Below, piece by piece: positions 15,925 through 40,919 of a stretch of DNA of 64,000 nucleotides. The position numbers and the translations under genes were made by a program. Positions within the stretch are counted from its first letter, which is position 1; each line of letters opens with the position of its first letter. Under the pieces are notes generated by a model. The model did not search any database. It had not been told where the DNA came from and worked only from the letters and a program-made list of their open reading frames with translations. Source of the stretch: Chthoniobacterales bacterium. GTDB taxonomy: Bacteria > Verrucomicrobiota > Verrucomicrobiia > Chthoniobacterales > UBA10450. The stretch lies in NCBI GenBank assembly GCA_038203615.1, contig JBBRDU010000001.1:14708-78707 (forward strand). Direction: 5' to 3'.

Positions 15925-16775
15925 ACGCGCCCCTCGAACCCGTCATCGAAGTGTCCAACCTCTTCCGGAAATTCGGGGACCGTTCCGTCATTGATAATGT
16001 CTCACTCACGATCCATCGCGGGGAGACGCTCGTCATCATGGGCGGGAGCGGTTGTGGCAAGAGCACTCTCTTGCGGCATATCATCGGAGTCATGAAACCG
16101 ACTTCCGGCTCGGTCAGGATCTTCGGGGAAGAAATCACGTCCATGAACGAGCGCGAGATCGCGGGAGTGCGCACGCGTTTCGGCATGTTGTTTCAATCGG
16201 GCGCCCTGCTCGCCTCCCTCACCGTGGGAGAGAATGTCGCGCTCCCCCTTCTCCAGCACACCGATCTGCCGCCCGAAGAGGTGGAAGAGATCGTTCGGAA
16301 AAAATTACAGATGGTCGGGCTGAGCGGGTTTGAAAAGCTCAAGCCCTCCGAGATCAGCGGCGGCATGAAGAAGCGCGTGGGATTGGCGCGGGCTCTCGTG
16401 CTCGACCCGGAGTTGCTCTTCAGTGACGAGCCGACCTCTGGCCTCGATCCGATCATGACCGCAGTGGTCGATCAACTCACGCTCAAACTCACCCGCGCCA
16501 ATCACATGACGGCGGTGGTCGTGACGCACGACATGACCAGCGCATTTCGCATCGCCACGCGCATGATCATGCTGGGGGGTGGACGGATCGTGGCGCAGGG
16601 CACCCCCGAAGAAATTCGCAACGATCCTCACCCGGAAGTGCAACAATTTATCCATGGCCAGCCCGATGGGGCCGTGCCCCTGAATCTTTCGCACGACGAG
16701 CATGGACATCATCAACACGTGAAACCGCGGCCCTTTGTCCGGGCCCGGCATCGCTTCCACCATAAGACCGCATGA
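15921..16775 (+). CDS. mlaF: Mla-type ABC transporter ATP-binding protein with a His-rich C-terminal tail
   Basis: Walker A GGSGCGKST, signature SGGMKKRVGLAR, Walker B LLFSDEPTSGLD. The ATG at 15921 overlaps the mlaE stop (ATGA). Confidence 0.9.
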   Translation: MNAPLEPVIEVSNLFRKFGDRSVIDNVSLTIHRGETLVIMGGSGCGKSTLLRHIIGVMKPTSGSVRIFGEEITSMNEREIAGVRTRFGMLFQSGALLASLTVGENVALPLLQHTDLPPEEVEEIVRKKLQMVGLSGFEKLKPSEISGGMKKRVGLARALVLDPELLFSDEPTSGLDPIMTAVVDQLTLKLTRANHMTAVVVTHDMTSAFRIATRMIMLGGGRIVAQGTPEEIRNDPHPEVQQFIHGQPDGAVPLNLSHDEHGHHQHVKPRPFVRARHRFHHKTA

Positions 16776-17653
16776 AACGAAATCTGTCCGACTACATTGT
16801 TGCCCTCGCCGTCATCGCCTGCAGCGCGGTGTTGTTAGGCGCGCTGACCATTGCCCTTTCCGGCTATCGTTTGAAAACGCCGGAACGCACCCTGCAAATT
16901 GATTATGAAGATGTCACCGGCATCAAGATTCATTCGGAAGTGCGTTATGCGGGCGCGCCGGCCGGGCGAGTCATCGCCCTGCGCCACCTGAGTGCGGTCG
17001 AGCGGACCGGCGCGGTTAATAAACGCGACGCCGTACGGGTGACGGTCAGCCTCGACGACAAGATTCCGCCCATGCCGGCTGACGTGCAGGCCACGCTCAG
17101 CTCCGACACGTTGCTGGCACCCAAGTTCGTGGCGCTCTCCGCCGGCACCCCGGGTGGCAGGACTTTGGCGAACAACTCTATTATAGAAGGGCATCCGGCC
17201 TACGGGATCGAACAGATCACCGCGGCCGCCGGTCCTCTCTTCGATCATGCCAACGTTCTGCTCGACAGCTTGAACGGCACGGTCGCGGACTTGAAGAGCG
17301 GTCTGGCCGGCTTCATGCCGAAGATGCCTTTCCTGATCGACTCCGCCAAGGCCGACTTCGACCAGTTGCAGAAGGTCGTGCAAGGTTTGACCGAGGTGGA
17401 GACGAAGGCGGGCACAGTGTTGGGCTCCGCCAACGATTTCTTGGGGAACACCGACAAAGAGCTGCAGGAACAATTAAAACAACTGCACGTGACCTTGATG
17501 AATCTGAAGGTGATCACAACCCACGCGAAAGCTTTGACCGAGGCCCTCGGCGAAAAACCAAATCGCCTCATCTTCAGCGGCAAACCGGCCAAGCTCACGT
17601 CTGAAGAAGAAATTCTGAAAAGTCGTCAACCCCTCCCGGCTAAAGCTCCCTGA
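16772..17653 (+). CDS. mlaD: MCE-domain substrate-binding protein
   Basis: N-terminal TM helix followed by an MCE-like domain. The ATG overlaps the mlaF stop (ATGA). Confidence 0.8.
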   Translation: MKRNLSDYIVALAVIACSAVLLGALTIALSGYRLKTPERTLQIDYEDVTGIKIHSEVRYAGAPAGRVIALRHLSAVERTGAVNKRDAVRVTVSLDDKIPPMPADVQATLSSDTLLAPKFVALSAGTPGGRTLANNSIIEGHPAYGIEQITAAAGPLFDHANVLLDSLNGTVADLKSGLAGFMPKMPFLIDSAKADFDQLQKVVQGLTEVETKAGTVLGSANDFLGNTDKELQEQLKQLHVTLMNLKVITTHAKALTEALGEKPNRLIFSGKPAKLTSEEEILKSRQPLPAKAP

Positions 17654-17675
17654 CTCCCGTCCTCCGCCGATCGGC

Positions 17676-17763
17676 GCGAAACCTCGCTTGTCAGGGCGGG
17701 TTGCATGGTCGATATCGATTTCCACATTCGGTCCTTATGAAATTTTTTCGCATTCTCCTCCTG
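17676..17763 (+). repeat. 88-bp direct repeat, upstream copy
   Basis: 84/88 identical to 18930-19017. It contains ATGAAATTTTTTCGCATTCTCCTCCTG, a copy of the lysozyme gene start. Confidence 0.9.
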
Positions 17764-17773
17764 TGCAATCGAA

Positions 17774-17805
17774 GATTGGGGTCGTATCTAAATATTTGAC
17801 ATTTT
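17774..17805 (+). repeat. left inverted repeat of the Y1-DnaA_C element
   Basis: GATTGGGGTCGTATCTAAATATTTGACATTTT. It matches the reverse complement of 18803-18834 at 28/32. It ends 25 nt before the ATG. Confidence 0.85.
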
Positions 17806-17830
17806 TTCTCGGATTAGGGAGGGTTGGTGG

Positions 17831-18820
17831 ATGGCACGGGCGTTGCGGCTGGAGTTTGAAGGAGCGCTGTATCATATTTGTGCGCGTGGGAATCGCCGGG
17901 AGCGCATTTTCGCTGACGAGCAGGATTGCGAGCGTTTTCTTCTCCTGTTGCGGGAATCAATTGGCCGCTACGAAGTGGAAGTTCACGCCTACGTCCTTTT
18001 GCCCAACCACTTTCATCTTCTGGCGCGGACGCTCAAGGCGAACCTCAGCCGATGGATGCACTGGCTGGTGGCGGTTTATAGCATTCAGTTTAATCGCCGG
18101 CACAAGAAGACGGGCCATCTTTTCCAGGGCCGTTACAAGAGCTTTGTGGTCGATGGCGGGGATTACCTGCTCGGGGTGAGCCGTTATTTGCATCTTAACC
18201 CGGTGCGTGGCCGGGTCATCGGAGCGGGTGATCCCAAAGAACGGCGAGGGCGCCTGCGGGCCTATCCCTGGAGCAGTTATCGGGGTTACGCGGGCCTGGG
18301 AAAACAGGATGACTTTGTCAGCGAAGAGTTGGTTTTAGGCGAGTTTGGCGGACGACTCATTCAGCAGGACAAGCTTCGCTACCGGCGCTTTGTCGAAGAG
18401 GGTCTGTTCCGTGAGATCGAAAACCCCTTCGAGGCCGTGCAATGGCAAATGGTGTTGGGTGGCGAATCGCTGGTGCGAAGAGTCAAAGACAAGCTGCGAG
18501 CTAAAGGGGATCAATCGCGAGAAGTCACGGGGTTGCGCCGCGCCGCCAGTAGAAGTCAGCCGAAGGGGCTGGTGGCGCTGGTGGCATCGCATTGCGGAAT
18601 TTCGGTAGCCAAACTTCTACGAAAACCGGCCTACGGGTCGGAGGCTCATAACCTGGCTATTTGGCTGGTCTGGCAAAACAGTGGGCTGACCCTGCGTGAG
18701 ATTGGCATGATGTTTGGCGGAATCGACTATGCGGCCGTGAGCCAGCGGATCAGGCGAATTGAAAAGCGGGCAGAAACTGACAATCGATTAAGGCAAACAC
18801 TCAAAATATTGAATATTTAG
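17831..18820 (+). CDS. IS200/RAYT-like HUH Y1 transposase fused to a DnaA domain IV-like HTH
   Basis: YHICARGN.., HUH motif LLPNHFHLLA, catalytic Tyr RYLHLNPV. The C-terminal ~90 aa (..NSGLTLREIGMMFGGIDYAAVSQRIRRIE..) resemble Bac_DnaA_C. Confidence 0.8.
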   Translation: MARALRLEFEGALYHICARGNRRERIFADEQDCERFLLLLRESIGRYEVEVHAYVLLPNHFHLLARTLKANLSRWMHWLVAVYSIQFNRRHKKTGHLFQGRYKSFVVDGGDYLLGVSRYLHLNPVRGRVIGAGDPKERRGRLRAYPWSSYRGYAGLGKQDDFVSEELVLGEFGGRLIQQDKLRYRRFVEEGLFREIENPFEAVQWQMVLGGESLVRRVKDKLRAKGDQSREVTGLRRAASRSQPKGLVALVASHCGISVAKLLRKPAYGSEAHNLAIWLVWQNSGLTLREIGMMFGGIDYAAVSQRIRRIEKRAETDNRLRQTLKILNI

Positions 18821-18834
18821 ATACGGCCCCAATC
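18803..18834 (-). repeat. right inverted repeat of the Y1-DnaA_C element
   Basis: The reverse complement reads GATTGGGGCCGTATCTAAATATTCAATATTTT. It overlaps the TAG stop (18818-18820). It contains the palindrome AAATATTCAATATTT. Confidence 0.85.
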
Positions 18835-18863
18835 CCCCCAAAACGGCCCCAATCCCCCCAAAA
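18824..18863 (+). repeat. perfect 20-nt tandem duplication
   Basis: CGGCCCCAATCCCCCCAAAA x2. The first unit overlaps the end of the right inverted repeat. Confidence 0.9.
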
Positions 18864-18929
18864 GCGGACATGACATGAGGGTGGTTCTTCGCGTAAAGGT
18901 CGAACAACGTCTTGGGATGCTCAGCTAGG

Positions 18930-19017
18930 GCGAAACCTCGCTTGTCAGAGCGGGTTGCATGGTCGATATCGCTTTCCACATTCGGTCCTTATGAAACTTT
19001 TTCGCATCCTCCTCCTG
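18930..19017 (+). repeat. 88-bp direct repeat, downstream copy
   Basis: 84/88 identical to 17676-17763. It supplies the ATG (18991) and codons 1-9 of the lysozyme gene. Confidence 0.9.
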
Positions 19018-19779
19018 ATGATAGCACTGCCGCTCTGTGCTTCCGCCGGCAACTGTGTCGTCAACTTGTCGCATTACGATCTGATGCATCCGAATTTCGG
19101 CATGATGAAGAGCCAGGGCATCGTTGGAGTGATCCACGAAGCAACGTATCCGCGGTTCGATCGCGACGCGCTTTACGGTATTCGTCAACAGGCGGCCACG
19201 CGCGCCGGTTTACTCTGGGGCGCGTATCACTTTGCCGATGCCACGGATCCCGTGCGCCAGGCCGATCATTTTCTCCGGGTGGTTTCGTCCTCCTGGTCCG
19301 GCTCCAACGTCGACCCGCGGCCGACCGGTGTTTTGCTCGTGCTCGATTTCGAAAAAAATGGCCACTACCCGGGAGGCACGATGCGCCCGGACCAGGCGGT
19401 CGCTTTTGTGGAACGCATCAAGGAGCGAACCGGACTGTATCCCGGAGTTTATGGGAGCGAGAACCGGCTGCGCGCCGTTTTGCACGCCTCGAATGTGAGC
19501 GCGGCGCAGCGCCGCGTGCTGGGCAACTGCTGGCTTTGGGTGGCGAACTATCACTGGGAGCCGCGCGGAATTGATCCGTGGAGTTCCTGGCGGATGTGGC
19601 AGTACACGGGCGACGGGAAGTGCGATCTGCGTCCGCGCTCCGCTTATCCGAAGAGCATCGCCAACATCGCGAGAGCGGAGCGCAATATCTTCCGCGGCAG
19701 CGACGCCGCAGCCATCGCTTTCTGGCAGGAACACGCCTGGCAGCCCGGCGGAACGGAAAGCACCGGGAGGAAACCGTAG
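18991..19779 (+). CDS. GH25 muramidase (lysozyme), secreted
   Basis: Signal peptide MKLFRILLLMIALPLCASA, then GH25-like blocks (..GVIHEATY..WGAYHF..LVLDFE..WLWVANY..WRMWQYTGDG). The track ORF starts at TTG 18955. Confidence 0.8.
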   Translation: MKLFRILLLMIALPLCASAGNCVVNLSHYDLMHPNFGMMKSQGIVGVIHEATYPRFDRDALYGIRQQAATRAGLLWGAYHFADATDPVRQADHFLRVVSSSWSGSNVDPRPTGVLLVLDFEKNGHYPGGTMRPDQAVAFVERIKERTGLYPGVYGSENRLRAVLHASNVSAAQRRVLGNCWLWVANYHWEPRGIDPWSSWRMWQYTGDGKCDLRPRSAYPKSIANIARAERNIFRGSDAAAIAFWQEHAWQPGGTESTGRKP

Positions 19780-38284: not shown

Positions 38285-39004
38285 TCATTGAAATCGCCGA
38301 TCGTATTCGCGCGAGACGCGGGTTAGGACCGACGAGTATTCCATTTCAGTATTGCCCAGATCGACCCACTCGAATGGAAACGGCTTTGCGTTCGTGGCGC
38401 GGAACGGCAGAATCTGAAATTCATCGAATGCTGGACGAGCTCTTTCCTCTAGGCGCTGCTCGGCTTGGGCGGCTTCTTGAATGGGATGCTTGTATCTCTT
38501 CCCGTCAGTCGGCCAGCGCTTCCGCCCTTCGAACGAGACGTATTGTTCAGCGAAGTTAATCCCGACAAAGGCGACACAGATCGGATTGCCGCCGCCGCGC
38601 TTAAATTGCGTCACCTGATTCGTCAGGTCGTTAATGACGCGGTCGATCTGCTTGATCATCGCTTTAGCCAGAATCTTCGTTTCGGCGCCAATCTCGATCG
38701 TTGCGACAGGACCGCGCGCCACAAGCATTCCTTTCTCAGTAACTGCGAGCGCCGCAGGGACTAGCTCGCCGAAGGTTCCATCACCGCGCCGCGACGGTTT
38801 TCCGGTCATGACATTCTTTAGGTTCACCACGCGTTCGTGGTGCTCGACACGTTCTAAGAGTTTTGCCGACTTCTTGAGCGCGGCGAGATCTTCGTAGAGA
38901 TACGAGGCAACGAGGTCGCCCAGGTTCGCGATGCGGTGACGATACGGTTTGCCTTCGAAAAGGCCGCGGAACGTCCGAAGTAAGGAATATTTTTCGACGC
39001 TCAT
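38285..39004 (-). CDS. candidate type II restriction endonuclease (unassigned family)
   Basis: The 239-aa ORF has its ATG overlapping the methyltransferase stop (ATGA). A possible PD-(D/E)XK arrangement is present (..RRGDGTF.. then ..IEIGAETKIL..). The call rests mainly on context. Confidence 0.5.
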   Translation of the reverse strand: MSVEKYSLLRTFRGLFEGKPYRHRIANLGDLVASYLYEDLAALKKSAKLLERVEHHERVVNLKNVMTGKPSRRGDGTFGELVPAALAVTEKGMLVARGPVATIEIGAETKILAKAMIKQIDRVINDLTNQVTQFKRGGGNPICVAFVGINFAEQYVSFEGRKRWPTDGKRYKHPIQEAAQAEQRLEERARPAFDEFQILPFRATNAKPFPFEWVDLGNTEMEYSSVLTRVSREYDRRFQ

Positions 39005-40137
39005 CTCTCGACTCGGAGAGTCGAATGACTGGCCCCAAACGTCCGTGGCATTCCCGTGGCAAGATGAAGGCGCTGCTCTGCGATCTTCAGATAAGCCGAC
39101 TCGATTTCGTTCCCAATGCTATTCCGCCCAGTCGCAACAGCGGCGAGATTCGTCGTCCCCGTCCCGACAAAGGGATCGAGAATCGTATCGCCAGCGAACG
39201 AGAAGAGCTTGATCAGCCGCTCAGCAAGACTTTGAGGATACGGAGCGGGATGACCACGCCGCGTCGATTCACCTTTGATGTCGAGCCATGCAGATCGCAG
39301 CCATGATTTCATTTCTTCTTTCGTTAACATCGACAACACCTTTTGCATCGGACTTGGCGAACGGTATTCGCCGCCCTTCCGCAAGAGGAGAATGTATTCA
39401 ACGTCGTTCTTAATGATTGCGCCTGGTTGGTAGGGTTTTCCGTAGAATCCTGCGCCGTTGCCTTTGGCTTCAGTCACTCCGTTCGCGATCTTGAACCAAA
39501 GAATTGGAGTTAAAGCGTCCAGCCCGAACTTGCGTGCGCGCACCATGATGTCCGCATGCAACGGCATAACGCGATGGCGTCCCTCGCACCTCGGAATGCA
39601 AACATCGCCGACAACGCAGCAAATGCGCCCGCCCGGGGCGAGAACGCGTGCGCATTCGCGCCAGACCTTGTCCAATTCGTCCAAAAAGCTGTCGTAATTC
39701 GCGATCTCGCCGAGCTGTTGCTCATTATCTTCGTATTTCTTTAACGTCCAGTAGGGAGGTGACGTAACGACAAGATGGACACTCTGAGTCGGAATCCAGG
39801 ATAAATCGCGAGCGTCGCCGAGCCGAAGATGATGCGTAGTTTTATCGAAAGGTTCCGGCCAAGGATGGGTCCGGAAATGGGCATTCTTCGCTAATAGTTT
39901 CGTGATTGCACCGCGTTCGTTGTCTGAAAAATCGACAGTGGCGCTTGCCGGATCGAATATTTCAGTCGGAGTTTTATCCGTCCGCTTATCCTTCGGCCGG
40001 TGGTGTCGAAATCCGTTCGTCGTGCCGTTTGCCGACTTTCTGACGAGGTAAAGCTGCTCGTGTTCTTTAACCACGGCTCGCTTTCTTCGGGGATGCGCCA
40101 GAGGAACGCTCTTCGTGACCACTGAGCTTTTCGGCAT
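39001..40137 (-). CDS. beta-class DNA methyltransferase (SPPY motif IV, N4-cytosine type likely)
   Basis: VVTSPPYWTLKKY (motif IV) precedes ILDPFVGTGTT (motif I), which is the beta-class order. It has a ~110-aa basic N-terminal extension. ATG at 40137; the track start at 40164 is TTG. Confidence 0.85.
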   Translation of the reverse strand: MPKSSVVTKSVPLAHPRRKRAVVKEHEQLYLVRKSANGTTNGFRHHRPKDKRTDKTPTEIFDPASATVDFSDNERGAITKLLAKNAHFRTHPWPEPFDKTTHHLRLGDARDLSWIPTQSVHLVVTSPPYWTLKKYEDNEQQLGEIANYDSFLDELDKVWRECARVLAPGGRICCVVGDVCIPRCEGRHRVMPLHADIMVRARKFGLDALTPILWFKIANGVTEAKGNGAGFYGKPYQPGAIIKNDVEYILLLRKGGEYRSPSPMQKVLSMLTKEEMKSWLRSAWLDIKGESTRRGHPAPYPQSLAERLIKLFSFAGDTILDPFVGTGTTNLAAVATGRNSIGNEIESAYLKIAEQRLHLATGMPRTFGASHSTLRVER

Positions 40138-40411
40138 AGCGATGTTTAACACGCCGTCTTCCAAACCGCTATGAAATTCAATTCACGCCTCAAGGTGTCG
40201 CCCGGGTCGATCCCAACGGTTACCCCTCCTATTCCAAGGTTTGGGGAACGACCAAGGAGACCAAACCGTTGCGCGACGAAGTGCGTGAGCGGTTGTCGCA
40301 AGCGCGCTTTGTTCCGGCCGTTTGTGAGCATCGACATGTGTGGGGGTGGTTTTACGGAACGGTGGCCTTTAGCGTCGTCGACGGAAAACCGCATCTCAGA
40401 ATTTTTGCCAA

Positions 40412-40449
40412 TTGCGTAGATTAAGGTCGGTTGCGTAGATTAAGGTCGT
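40412..40449 (+). repeat. 19-nt tandem duplication at the edge of unit A
   Basis: TTGCGTAGATTAAGGTCGG / TTGCGTAGATTAAGGTCGT. The second unit runs into the GGTCGTGTCTAAACATT core. Confidence 0.85.
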
Positions 40450-40603
40450 GTCTAAACATTTGACATTTGATGACGGGGAAAGCGGATTCCTATCACGCCG
40501 TGTGCTGATCATCGGCAGGCAAAGGTTCTAGGCAGGATTAGCCTGATTCTTACGAGACCCCCCTCAGCGAAACCGACCCTTTGATCTGCGGTCTCAATCT
40601 CCC
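40444..40603 (+). repeat. ~160-nt repeat unit A (Y1-element core + conserved mini-ORF + 36-nt R box)
   Basis: The core GGTCGTGTCTAAACATTTGACATTT (40444-40468) resembles the IRs at 17774 and 18834. The stretch 40451-40549 aligns with 43303-43401. The R box is at 40568-40603. Confidence 0.75.
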
Positions 40604-40704
40604 TGCTCTCCTCTTCTCTATCATAACCCGCTTATGATCGATGAGTTTTGACCGAAGAAAGTGTGCCGGGGCGGGAAGACCTTTCCTAAAAGCAGGTGTT
40701 TAAA

Positions 40705-40732
40705 ACTCGACGGCTTTAAGCCGTCGAGTTTC
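40705..40732. terminator. bidirectional-looking stem-loop
   Basis: ACTCGACGGC-TTTAA-GCCGTCGAGT is flanked by TAAAA on the left and TTT on the right. On the minus strand it follows an apparent orphan 3' coding end (..APRSNDPTKLTDALAELYKPPT*). Confidence 0.5.
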
Positions 40733-40841: not shown

Positions 40842-40877
40842 CGAAATCGACCATTTGATCTGCGGTCTCAATCTCCC
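40842..40877 (+). repeat. 36-nt R box, second copy
   Basis: CGAAATCGACCATTTGATCTGCGGTCTCAATCTCCC, 34/36 identical to 40568-40603. Confidence 0.85.
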
Positions 40878-40892: not shown

Positions 40893-40919
40893 GGGGTCGT
40901 ATCTAAACATTCAATATTT
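40893..40919 (+). repeat. solo copy B of the Y1-element core
   Basis: GGGGTCGTATCTAAACATTCAATATTT, compared with the reverse complement of 18803-18834, GGGGCCGTATCTAAATATTCAATATTT. Confidence 0.8.

What the first reader, a model, noticed from the sequence alone, without database searches (positions are those of the whole stretch)
17676..19017. Intact HUH/Y1 transposase-DnaA_C fusion gene with terminal inverted repeats, inside an insertion flanked by an 88-bp duplication that rebuilds the lysozyme gene start
Seen in the sequence:
- ORF 17831-18820 keeps both catalytic signatures of IS200/RAYT-type Y1 enzymes (HUH LPNHFHLL; Tyr in RYLHLNPV). It ends in a ~90-aa helix-turn-helix region resembling DnaA domain IV.
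- The ORF is bracketed by 32-bp inverted repeats that match at 28/32 (17774-17805 vs the reverse complement of 18803-18834). The right repeat overlaps the stop codon. The left repeat ends 25 nt before the ATG.
- The whole 1.17-kb block sits between two 88-bp direct repeats that match at 84/88 (17676-17763 and 18930-19017).
- The downstream copy provides the ATG and codons 1-9 (MKLFRILLL) of the GH25 lysozyme.
- The upstream copy carries the same start (MKFFRILLL) but runs into the insert and stops after 20 codons.

Established: classical IS200/IS605 Y1 transposases use subterminal hairpins. They have no terminal inverted repeats and make no target-site duplication.

Inference: this is not a textbook IS. 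It could be an unusual mobile element. It could also be a domesticated HUH/HTH protein whose IRs serve as its own operators. The 88-bp duplication needs a mechanism such as replicative repair or recombination.
Basis: partly seen in the sequence, partly recalled or inferred. Interest (0 to 1): 0.75.

Follow-up and report, generated by a model that had tools for sequence, protein, structure and literature searches.

The report
TIRtron: Y1 transposase gene with inverted repeats
This is a soil-Verrucomicrobia member of an already described but biochemically untested class, a RAYT-like HUH/tyrosine nuclease fused to a DnaA-type DNA-binding domain and flanked by inverted repeats; the same 28-nt repeat is scattered as gene-less copies through related genomes, and only the 88-bp duplication around this copy is unusual and unexplained.

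Summary
The ORF is a RAYT-like Y1/HUH nuclease with a C-terminal DnaA domain IV.

This architecture is already published. It is the "TIRtron/TIRYT" class of Di Nocera et al. 2013 and TnpA_Y1 subclass 2.1.2 of Quentin et al. 2018.

The inverted repeats are not private operators. They are two copies of a sharply bounded 28-nt unit, GGGGTCGTATCTAAACATTYRACATTT. This unit forms no hairpin and lies outside genes. It is dispersed, mostly without the gene, in Chthoniobacterales/Verrucomicrobiae genomes, and two solo copies sit at 40.4 and 40.9 kb of this window.

Identical proteins occur with different flanks, so the family has been mobile recently.

The 88-bp duplication is real relative to an empty site in a related organism. 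It is not a genome-wide repeat and not a general property, because none of five other loci with gene copies has one. Conspecific strains carry the same element at this locus without the duplication, and their junctions lie at the repeat tips. The mechanism of the duplication is unknown.

Verdict: a new member of a known kind, with some new anatomical detail about where its borders rearrange.

The parts
16772..17653 (+). mlaD gene, the upstream neighbour of the insertion site
   Evidence: Pfam MlaD E 1.5e-10. The ortholog lies directly upstream of the lysozyme gene in the empty-site locus L129.
17676..17763 (+). Upstream copy (DR1) of the 88-bp duplication. It contains 61 nt of intergenic DNA plus a dead lysozyme start; ATG 17737 gives a 20-codon ORF ending at 17799.
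   Evidence: 95% identical over 88 nt (84/88) to 18930-19017. Present as a single copy in L129. No other copy in the window or in 227 fetched loci.
17764..17777 (+). 14-nt left outer segment (TGCAATCGAAGATT) between DR1 and the GGGG tip of the left repeat; probably the true left end of the mobile unit
   Evidence: In the P0027 element, flanks diverge exactly 14 nt outside the left GGGG (TGGAAACGCGAAAC).
17778..17804 (+). Left TIR unit, GGGGTCGTATCTAAATATTTGACATTT ('TTGACA' type).
   Evidence: Information-content profile over 69 unique copies. All full gene copies have this type about 25-35 nt upstream of the ATG.
17831..18820 (+). TIRYT gene, 329 aa: N-terminal RAYT-like Y1/HUH nuclease, a poorly modelled linker (about residues 169-240), and a C-terminal DnaA domain IV-like HTH (about residues 243-325)
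   Evidence: Best fold match is 4ER8 TnpA_REP (E 2e-7, TM 0.68 normalised to the target); 1J1V DnaA domain IV has TM 0.82.
18804..18830 (-). Right TIR unit ('TTCAAT/TTCAAC' type). It overlaps the last five codons and the stop codon (KILNI*).
   Evidence: The same overlap occurs in every full copy.
18823..18862 (+). Perfect 20-nt tandem duplication (ACGGCCCCAATCCCCCCAAA x2) that starts at the outer tip of the right TIR, at the junction GGGGCCG|TATCT read on the TIR strand
   Evidence: D2. Analogous tip-abutting tandem duplications at window 40412-40449, L002 (x2, against x1 in L001), L099, L103 and L222.
18863..18929 (+). 67 nt of unknown origin between the right end of the element and DR2
   Evidence: No match in the window or any fetched locus. 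Absent from the sister-strain allele L223 and from the empty site L129.
18930..19017 (+). Downstream copy (DR2) of the 88-bp duplication. It supplies the upstream region, the ATG (18991) and codons 1-9 of the lysozyme gene.
18991..19779 (+). GH25 lysozyme gene, intact
   Evidence: Pfam Glyco_hydro_25 E 4.8e-22. 80 orthologous loci. 262-aa ortholog in L223.
40412..40468 (+). Solo TIR unit (40444-40468, TTGACA type) without a gene. It is preceded by an 18-nt tandem duplication (period 19, 40412-40448) that ends at ...GGTCG|T.
   Evidence: No TIRYT coding remnant by tblastn.
40893..40919 (+). Second solo TIR unit (TTCAAT type), in the same orientation as the one at 40444, in an intergenic region

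Best explanation
**What it is.** The locus is a TIRtron. It is a gene for a TIR-associated tyrosine transposase (TIRYT; TnpA_Y1 subclass 2.1.2) bracketed by two inverted copies of its cognate 28-nt repeat.

**Shown.**
- The protein is a RAYT-like HUH/Y1 single-strand nuclease fused to a DnaA domain IV helix-turn-helix.
- The repeat is a sharply bounded unit that forms no hairpin and lies outside genes. It is dispersed in Chthoniobacterales/Verrucomicrobiae genomes, mostly without the gene, as solo copies, inverted pairs (MITE-like) and clusters.
- Gene-bearing units with identical proteins sit in different flanks, so the family is or recently was mobile.
- This copy entered the mlaD-lysozyme spacer of an ancestor of this species, and it has been inherited vertically since.

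**Inferred mechanism.**
- The DnaA-IV domain replaces the hairpin recognition of IS200 and RAYT enzymes. It binds the inner part of the repeat (the tandem heptamers AACATTC-AACATTT) as duplex DNA.
- This places the HUH/Tyr site on the outer tip (GGGGTCG|TATC), where strands are nicked and rejoined.
- The enzyme thereby moves the gene-bearing unit and, in trans, the gene-less repeats, as RAYTs are thought to do for REPs.

**The 88-bp duplication.** I read it as a one-off by-product of this particular insertion, either a replicative template switch or repair of a long-staggered break. It survived because it kept the lysozyme promoter, start codon and signal peptide intact. It is not a regular target-site duplication.
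For: **Domains and fold.**

**Literature definition of the class.** TIRs share GGGGWSAS, may overlap the 3' end of the gene, and form dispersed families.

**Repeat family.**
- Four copies in the window against 0.00 expected.
- Many copies per genome in a few Verrucomicrobiae MAGs, even though the scan was truncated.
- The gene is next to the repeat in only 5 of the repeat-bearing loci.
- The conserved block is about 28 nt (27-nt core GGGGTCG...CATTT plus one weakly conserved outer base) with sharp edges.
- 3 of 32 solo copies lie in a long open frame, against 82% of random positions.
- MITE-like pairs occur in L049 and L035.

**Mobility.**
- The P0027 protein, 100% identical, occurs with at least 2 left and at least 5 right flanks.
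- Two copies 97% identical over the aligned 5' 300 nt occur in L211, and their flanks diverge immediately outside the right TIR tip and about 10 nt outside the left one.
- Close homologs sit in unrelated contexts.

**Insertion.**
- The empty site L129 has a single 88-bp segment.
- Vertical inheritance: sister strains are 96-98% identical in the flanks and 98.1% in the gene.

**No hairpins.**

**Breakpoints at the tips.** Tandem duplications abut 4 of 58 repeat copies against 24 of 4000 random positions. The junctions of the L223 allele lie at the tips. L216/L220 lack 4 nt at the tip.
Against: - No biochemical data exist for any TIRYT. Binding of the HTH to the heptamers and nicking at G|T are inferences.
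- The DnaA base-contact motif DHTTV is DYAAV here, so specificity cannot be transferred from DnaA.
- The TIR tip is GGGGTCGT, which matches the published GGGGWSAS motif at only 6 of 8 positions. Some family variants match 8 of 8.
- A 19-nt tandem indel also occurs away from any TIR, so the tip-duplication signal is only suggestive.
- The gene evolves with relaxed constraint between strains: 9 nonsynonymous against 8 synonymous codon changes, compared with 3 against 13 in mlaD.
- The insert has extra DNA outside the repeats that a clean transposition would not carry.
- Copy numbers per complete genome could not be counted.
Confidence: 0.72

Rival explanations
1. The gene is a domesticated HUH/HTH protein that acts as a transcription or DNA-metabolism factor. 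The two inverted repeats are its own operators, and there is no mobility.
For: - The left repeat contains TTGACA and lies 26 nt upstream of the ATG in every copy.
- The gene has been inherited vertically at this locus.
- There is one copy in the 64-kb window.
- RAYT-type enzymes are generally regarded as domesticated (abstracts).
Against: - Dozens of gene-less extragenic copies of the same 28-nt unit exist.
- Identical proteins occur with different flanks.
- Near-identical duplicate copies are bounded by the repeats.
- An empty site exists in a relative.
- No sigma-70-like promoter was scored in the region.
- Autoregulation through the ends is compatible with a transposase and does not distinguish the two readings.
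Confidence: 0.12
2. It is a classical IS200/IS605 insertion sequence or a canonical REP/RAYT system (REPtron).
For: - Pfam Y1_Tnp hit.
- Best fold match is E. coli TnpA_REP, 4ER8.
- JGI annotators name relatives 'RayT'.
Against: - No subterminal or REP-type hairpins are predicted.
- The repeat is not palindromic and lacks the GTAG tag.
- NCBIfam REP_Tyr_transpos scores 60 bits, below its cutoff of 80.
- The protein is twice as long as those enzymes and carries a DnaA-IV domain.
- No TnpB partner is present.
Confidence: 0.04
3. The 88-bp direct repeat is a regular target-site duplication made by this transposase. This would be a new HUH insertion mode with long staggered target cuts.
For: - The repeat flanks the insert, and the left junction coincides with the inferred true left end, 14 nt outside GGGG as in the P0027 element.
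- The empty site has one copy.
Against: - None of five other loci with gene copies (L209/L210, L211 a and b, L032, L121, L099) has a flanking direct repeat of 16 nt or more.
- P0027 copies show no matching flanks.
- On the right side, about 90 nt of foreign DNA lie between the element end and DR2.
Confidence: 0.08
4. The duplicated arrangement is an assembly chimera. The MAG contig joins two strain variants, and the 4 mismatches between the copies are strain SNPs.
For: - The window-type allele was found in no second assembly.
- Five independent assemblies of sister strains all show the compact allele.
- The 4.5% divergence between copies is similar to the divergence between strains.
Against: - Both novel junctions (CTCCTCCTG|TGCAATCG and CTAGG|GCGAAACC) lie outside any repeat an assembler could jump across. 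Each would therefore need to exist in reads, which implies two independent insertions 88 bp apart.
- In the 45 nt that can be compared with L223, each copy has its own private substitution, as expected for in-situ divergence.
Confidence: 0.08

Closest known systems
TIRtrons / TIRYTs (TIR-associated tyrosine transposases), Di Nocera, De Gregorio and Rocco 2013, BMC Genomics 14:522 (PMC3733652)
   Same: - A RAYT-like Y1/HUH gene flanked by long terminal inverted repeats rather than REP hairpins.
- The TIR starts with a GGGG motif.
- The TIR overlaps the 3' end of the gene.
- TIRs form a moderately abundant dispersed family found as single, dimeric or grouped copies.
   Different: - The tip is GGGGTCGT rather than GGGGWSAS (6 of 8 positions).
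- The host lineage is soil Chthoniobacterales/Verrucomicrobiae. That paper's text does not mention Chthoniobacter; its Figure 9 list of hosts could not be read.
- This copy sits inside an 88-bp duplication and carries extra DNA outside the TIRs. The word 'duplication' does not occur in that paper's main text.
TnpA_Y1 subclass 2.1.2, Quentin, Siguier, Chandler and Fichant 2018, BMC Genomics 19:475 (PMC6006769)
   Same: - Long Y1 proteins with a C-terminal Bac_DnaA_C-like HTH.
- The authors equate them with TIRYTs.
- No REP structures lie next to the gene.
- The flanking-repeat consensus is unlike a DnaA box.
   Different: - That study found no associated repeat family for the subclass. Here the TIR is clearly a dispersed repeat family.
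- Placement in the subclass by phylogeny was not tested here.
REP/RAYT (REPtron, REPIN-RAYT) systems; E. coli TnpA_REP (PDB 4ER8)
   Same: - Best structural match of the nuclease domain.
- The logic is the same: few gene copies, flanked by inverted copies of a short extragenic repeat that is far more abundant than the gene.
- Inheritance is largely vertical.
   Different: - REPs are GTAG-tagged palindromes recognised as hairpins. This repeat does not fold and has no GTAG.
- The protein has an extra DnaA-IV domain.
- It scores below the NCBIfam RAYT cutoff.
IS200/IS605 (IS608, ISDra2) Y1 transposases
   Same: HUH plus a single catalytic Tyr, the same fold, and the same Pfam family Y1_Tnp.
   Different: Those elements have asymmetric subterminal hairpins, no TIRs and no target duplication, and their enzymes are about 130-150 aa.
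DnaA domain IV (PDB 1J1V, 2HCB)
   Same: The C-terminal 90 residues are homologous by sequence profile (E 5.6e-10) and by fold (TM 0.82).
   Different: There are no AAA+ or other DnaA domains. The DNA-contact motif DHTTV is DYAAV. The TIR does not resemble the DnaA box TTATCCACA.

Membership tests
TIRtron / TIRYT (Di Nocera 2013) | RAYT-like Y1 protein with an HUH motif and a catalytic Tyr | tested here: met
   Pfam Y1_Tnp E 6.3e-13. H60/H62 and Y119 are invariant. Top fold hit is 4ER8.
TIRtron / TIRYT (Di Nocera 2013) | Gene flanked by terminal inverted repeats that are not REP hairpins | tested here: met
   28/32 IR. The same arrangement is present in L032, L209, L211, L212-L222 and L223. 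No significant fold.
TIRtron / TIRYT (Di Nocera 2013) | TIR carries the GGGGWSAS motif (true of many TIRYT TIRs, not all) | tested here: inconclusive
   The tip is GGGGTCGT, 6 of 8 positions. Variants GGGGTCAG, GGGGTCAC and GGGGTCAA exist in the same repeat family.
TIRtron / TIRYT (Di Nocera 2013) | TIRs belong to a dispersed repeat family (single, dimeric or grouped); true of some TIRYTs | tested here: met
TnpA_Y1 subclass 2.1.2 (Quentin 2018) | C-terminal Bac_DnaA_C / HTH extension | tested here: met
   Pfam 26.8 bits, below the cutoff. However, the family profile hits DnaA-IV at E 5.6e-10 and the fold matches with TM 0.82.
TnpA_Y1 subclass 2.1.2 (Quentin 2018) | Placement in the 2.1.2 clade of the TnpA_Y1 tree | not tested
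REP/RAYT (REPtron) | Flanking and dispersed repeats are GTAG-tagged palindromes that fold as hairpins | tested here: not met
   The consensus unit is a direct heptamer repeat with no GTAG. Folding z-scores lie between -0.96 and +0.88.
REP/RAYT (REPtron) | Protein reaches the curated RAYT model cutoff | tested here: not met
   NCBIfam NF047646 scores 60 bits against a cutoff of 80.
IS200/IS605 | Asymmetric subterminal hairpins, no TIRs, no target duplication, transposase of about 130-150 aa | tested here: not met
   TIRs are present, no hairpins are predicted, and the protein is 329 aa in two domains.
DnaA replication initiator | AAA+ domain III plus domain IV; binds the TTATCCACA box | tested here: not met
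   Only domain IV matches, at residues about 243-325. The TIR lacks a DnaA box.

The most novel reading that the evidence does not exclude
The outer tip of the 28-nt repeat (GGGGTCG|TATC) is the site where a DnaA-IV-guided HUH enzyme breaks and rejoins DNA in vivo. The enzyme would recognise its ends as duplex sequence rather than as hairpins. On this reading, the border changes seen here are all footprints of that activity:
- 16-30-nt tandem duplications at the tips, polymorphic within populations;
- deletions in sister strains that end at the tips;
- a 4-nt tip deletion;
- the 88-bp flanking duplication with about 90 nt of carried-along DNA.

This would be a mode of HUH transposition and rearrangement that has not been described.
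Probability: 0.2. Interest if true: 0.65.

Novelty: new member of a known kind. Interest (0 to 1): 0.35.

Why it matters
TIRYTs (TnpA_Y1 subclass 2.1) are the largest subclass in Quentin et al. 2018, present in 14.9% of the strains they surveyed (PMC6006769). More than 5,700 relatives of this protein were found here. The literature searches made here found no biochemical study of any of them.

This locus and its relatives supply three things an experimenter needs:
- a precisely bounded 28-nt candidate substrate;
- a candidate nick position;
- natural allelic series (empty, duplicated, compact).

If the DnaA-type domain really substitutes for hairpin recognition, that would show how single-strand HUH nucleases can be retargeted to duplex sequence. 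As a genome-annotation matter the finding is ordinary, because the class has a name.

Tried and rejected
- **Exact-protein look-ups.** Look-ups of the window's TIRYT, MlaD and lysozyme proteins found no second assembly of the window-type allele.
- **Source of the extra DNA.** I searched the window and 227 loci for a source of the 67-nt segment (18863-18929) and for other copies of the 88-bp repeat. None was found beyond the orthologous positions.
- **Long flanking repeats elsewhere.** I looked around five other loci with gene copies and found none. I therefore rejected the reading of the 88 bp as a regular target-site duplication.
- **Hairpins.** I folded both ends and both solo copies as ssDNA. 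There was no structure beyond shuffled controls, so I rejected IS200- or REP-like hairpin ends.
- **Promoter scan.** No sigma-70-type promoter was found in 17500-19200. The TTGACA in the left repeat therefore remains only a resemblance.
- **PDB sequence search.** It did not find TnpA_REP. Only the fold search did.
- **Palindrome.** AAATATTCAATATTT is specific to this copy (C-to-T changes in AACATTC-AACATTT), so I dropped it as the likely binding site.
- **Genome-wide count.** The pattern scan of genome contigs was truncated, and roughly half its hits were chance matches in unrelated phyla. Per-genome copy numbers could not be obtained.
- **Tip duplications.** They are enriched, but a 19-nt tandem indel elsewhere keeps this at the level of a lead.
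Full report
**1. Observation**

The region was read directly and all six frames were listed.

- ORF 17831-18820 (+) encodes 329 aa.
- The repeat finder reproduces the 32-nt inverted repeat (17774-17805 / 18803-18834, 88% complementary, i.e. 28/32).
- It also reproduces the 88-nt direct repeat (17676-17763 / 18930-19017, 95% identical, i.e. 84/88).
- It adds a perfect 20-nt tandem duplication (18823-18862) that begins at the outer tip of the right repeat.
- Pfam gives Y1_Tnp (E 6.3e-13) and a sub-threshold Bac_DnaA_C match (26.8 against 31.5 bits). The neighbours are MlaD and a GH25 lysozyme.
- NCBIfam's RAYT model scores 60 bits, below its cutoff of 80.
- DR2 supplies the lysozyme ATG and nine codons.
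- DR1 yields a 20-codon dead end, 17737-17799.

**2. The protein**

- A search of 5.8 billion proteins returned more than 5,788 relatives. The 120 best listed are mostly about 330 aa (range 254-353), and all but a few carry both Pfam domains. Some sources name them "RayT" or "putative transposase".
- In an alignment of 35 homologs, the HUH histidines (H60, H62) and Tyr119 are invariant.
- A profile of that alignment hits DnaA domain IV in the PDB: 2HCB/1L8Q at E 5.6e-10 and 1J1V at E 2.4e-8. The DnaA base-contact motif DHTTV is replaced by DYAAV.
- The AlphaFold model has mean pLDDT 68.7. The two domains are modelled well and the linker at residues 169-240 poorly.
- Its best PDB match is E. 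coli TnpA_REP bound to a REP hairpin (4ER8, E 2e-7), followed by the IS608 and ISDra2 transposases. The C-terminal domain superposes on DnaA-IV (1J1V, TM 0.82, rmsd 1.7 A).

**3. The inverted repeats are a dispersed repeat family**

- The 19-nt core occurs four times in the window against 0.00 expected. Besides the two gene-flanking copies there are two gene-less copies at 40444 and 40895, both on the + strand, in an intergenic region.
- A pattern scan of 185,579 species genomes was truncated at 118 loci. About half of the hits are chance matches in unrelated phyla.
- The true copies carry the extended consensus and come almost entirely from Verrucomicrobiae, Chthoniobacterales and Udaeobacter soil MAGs. 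Several per genome were found even in the truncated list.
- tblastn finds the gene next to the repeat in only five of those loci.
- Sixty-nine unique copies define a sharply bounded block of about 28 nt, GGGGTCGTATCTAAACATTYRACATTT. Its inner half is a direct heptamer repeat (AACATTC-AACATTT), not a palindrome. The window's AAATATTCAATATTT palindrome is a local accident.
- The ends do not fold better than shuffled sequence.
- Solo copies are extragenic: 3 of 32 lie in a long open frame, against 82% of random positions.
- Inverted pairs 134 and 230 nt apart look like miniature elements.

**4. Literature**

- Di Nocera et al. 2013 (PMC3733652) named exactly this arrangement. TIRtrons are RAYT-like genes (TIRYTs) flanked by long TIRs that share GGGGWSAS, sometimes overlap the 3' end of the gene, and form "moderately abundant" dispersed families.
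- Quentin et al. 2018 (PMC6006769) place most TIRYTs in TnpA_Y1 subclass 2.1. They describe the Bac_DnaA_C-like tail of subgroup 2.1.2 and note that the TIR consensus does not resemble a DnaA box.
- My searches found no experimental work on TIRYTs.
- The class is therefore known and the mechanism is not.

**5. Mobility**

- All full copies have a TTGACA-type unit 25-35 nt upstream of the ATG. They also have a TTCAAC-type unit overlapping the last five codons and the stop.
- One 100%-identical protein (P0027) occurs with at least two left and five right flanks. Homology starts 14 nt outside the left GGGG and ends about 11 nt outside the right CCCC.
- L211 carries two copies 97% identical over the aligned 5' 300 nt. 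Their flanks diverge immediately outside the right TIR tip and about 10 nt outside the left one.
- Close homologs sit after a MacB-type ABC transporter gene (PF12704 MacB_PCD plus PF02687 FtsX), or inside Rhs toxin loci.

**6. This insertion**

- Of 80 orthologous lysozyme loci recovered from metagenomes, one has mlaD immediately upstream of the lysozyme gene. This locus, L129, has MlaD 90% and lysozyme 81% identical at the amino-acid level.
- In L129, mlaD is followed after about 84 nt by the lysozyme gene, with a single copy of the 88-bp segment. It is an empty site.
- In the window, the DR1/insert junction lies exactly 14 nt outside the left GGGG. This matches the left boundary of the P0027 element.
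- On the right, the second 20-nt tandem copy and 67 nt of unknown origin separate the element end from DR2.
- No other gene copy has a long flanking repeat.
- The 88-bp segment is not a genome-wide repeat.

**7. Sister strains**

- A 90%-cluster mate of the protein (P0121) led to five independent assemblies, L223-L227.
- They are 96-98% identical to the window in the flanking genes and 98.1% identical in the TIRYT gene. The element is therefore old and inherited vertically at this locus.
- These alleles lack DR1, the tandem copy, the 67 nt and the first half of DR2.
- The right repeat abuts ...CCCC|ACATTCGCCCTTATG, 12 nt before the lysozyme ATG.
- On the left, 14-18 nt of GGRTCGG-like reiterations, with a variable G-run, link the mlaD stop codon to the repeat.
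- The window allele cannot be derived from the compact one without an outside template. The simplest order is therefore empty site, then window-type, then compact by deletions next to the repeats. Independent insertions are not excluded.
- Between the two alleles the gene shows 9 nonsynonymous and 8 synonymous codon changes, against 3 and 13 in mlaD. This indicates relaxed constraint.

**8. Breakpoints at the tips**

- Tandem duplications of 16-30 nt abut or include the outer tip in six places: window 18823-18862, window 40412-40449, L002 (polymorphic against L001), L099, L103 and L222.
- Under one fixed rule, 4 of 58 unique repeats have such a duplication, against 24 of 4000 random positions.
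- A 19-nt tandem indel also occurs elsewhere, so this remains a lead.
- Together with the compact-allele junctions and a 4-nt tip deletion in L216/L220, it points to GGGGTCG|TATC as the place where DNA is broken and rejoined.

**9. Conclusion**

- The finding is a correct and careful observation of a new member of a known kind.
- The proposed mechanism is an inference to be tested: the DnaA-IV domain binds the inner heptamers as duplex DNA and the HUH domain nicks at the tip.
- The 88-bp duplication is real relative to an empty site, specific to this locus, seen in a single assembly, and mechanistically unexplained.

Noticed in passing
L019, L029, L041, L063, L069 (Chthoniobacterales/Verrucomicrobiae MAG loci; positions): In five loci the 28-nt repeat is split after ...TCTAAACATT by a conserved insert of about 59 nt (ACGCTCCCGCTAGTGCATC...TTGCCGCAGAGCGGCATG). 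The insert is bracketed by ATT/ATT, and the repeat then resumes with CAACATTT. It looks like a tiny element that targets the repeat itself. L063 has a further nested 31-nt GTAG-type hairpin.
   Followed up: partly
L034, L042, L054, L057, L098, L118, L065, L023, L091 (next to solo repeats): Many solo repeats are followed, or sometimes preceded, by degenerate heptamer arrays such as (GTTGAGN)n or (CTGAAAN)n. Their meaning is unknown.
   Followed up: no
L209 1-5999, L210, L211 1-5990: TIRtron copies sit just downstream of Rhs/YD-repeat toxin genes. L211 has two copies 3.2 kb apart plus a further 3' gene fragment at the contig end.
   Followed up: partly
window 40568-40603 and 40842-40877; 40703-40731: A 36-nt direct repeat (94% identical) lies between the two solo repeats. 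A perfect 14-bp inverted repeat with a 1-nt spacer, resembling a terminator, is also present in the same 0.5-kb intergenic region.
   Followed up: no
window 38285-40164 (-): An N6/N4 DNA methylase gene (Pfam N6_N4_Mtase, E 1.4e-40) lies next to a 239-aa ORF with no Pfam match. This may be a restriction-modification pair, and it borders the solo-repeat region.
   Followed up: no
L032 (Pyrinomonadales MAG), L103 (Bathyarchaeota MAG), L112 (Dormiibacterota MAG), L127 (Cyanophyceae MAG): Short contigs with true copies of the Verrucomicrobia-type repeat are binned to unrelated phyla. L032 carries a full TIRtron 69% identical to the window's. This is either mis-binning or horizontal transfer.
   Followed up: no
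L001-L010 (P0021 locus), gene start region about 3700-4060 of L002: This TIRYT copy has lost its left repeat, and its first ~40 codons are replaced (88% query coverage). It is still conserved at one site after a MacB-type ABC transporter gene (MacB_PCD plus FtsX) across 10 soil metagenome contigs.
   Followed up: partly
L213 vs L221, right flank of the P0027 element: Two contigs share the same downstream flank but differ in the sequence between it and the element end. One has a 20-nt filler and the other a 4-nt filler. This is another length polymorphism at a repeat tip.
   Followed up: no
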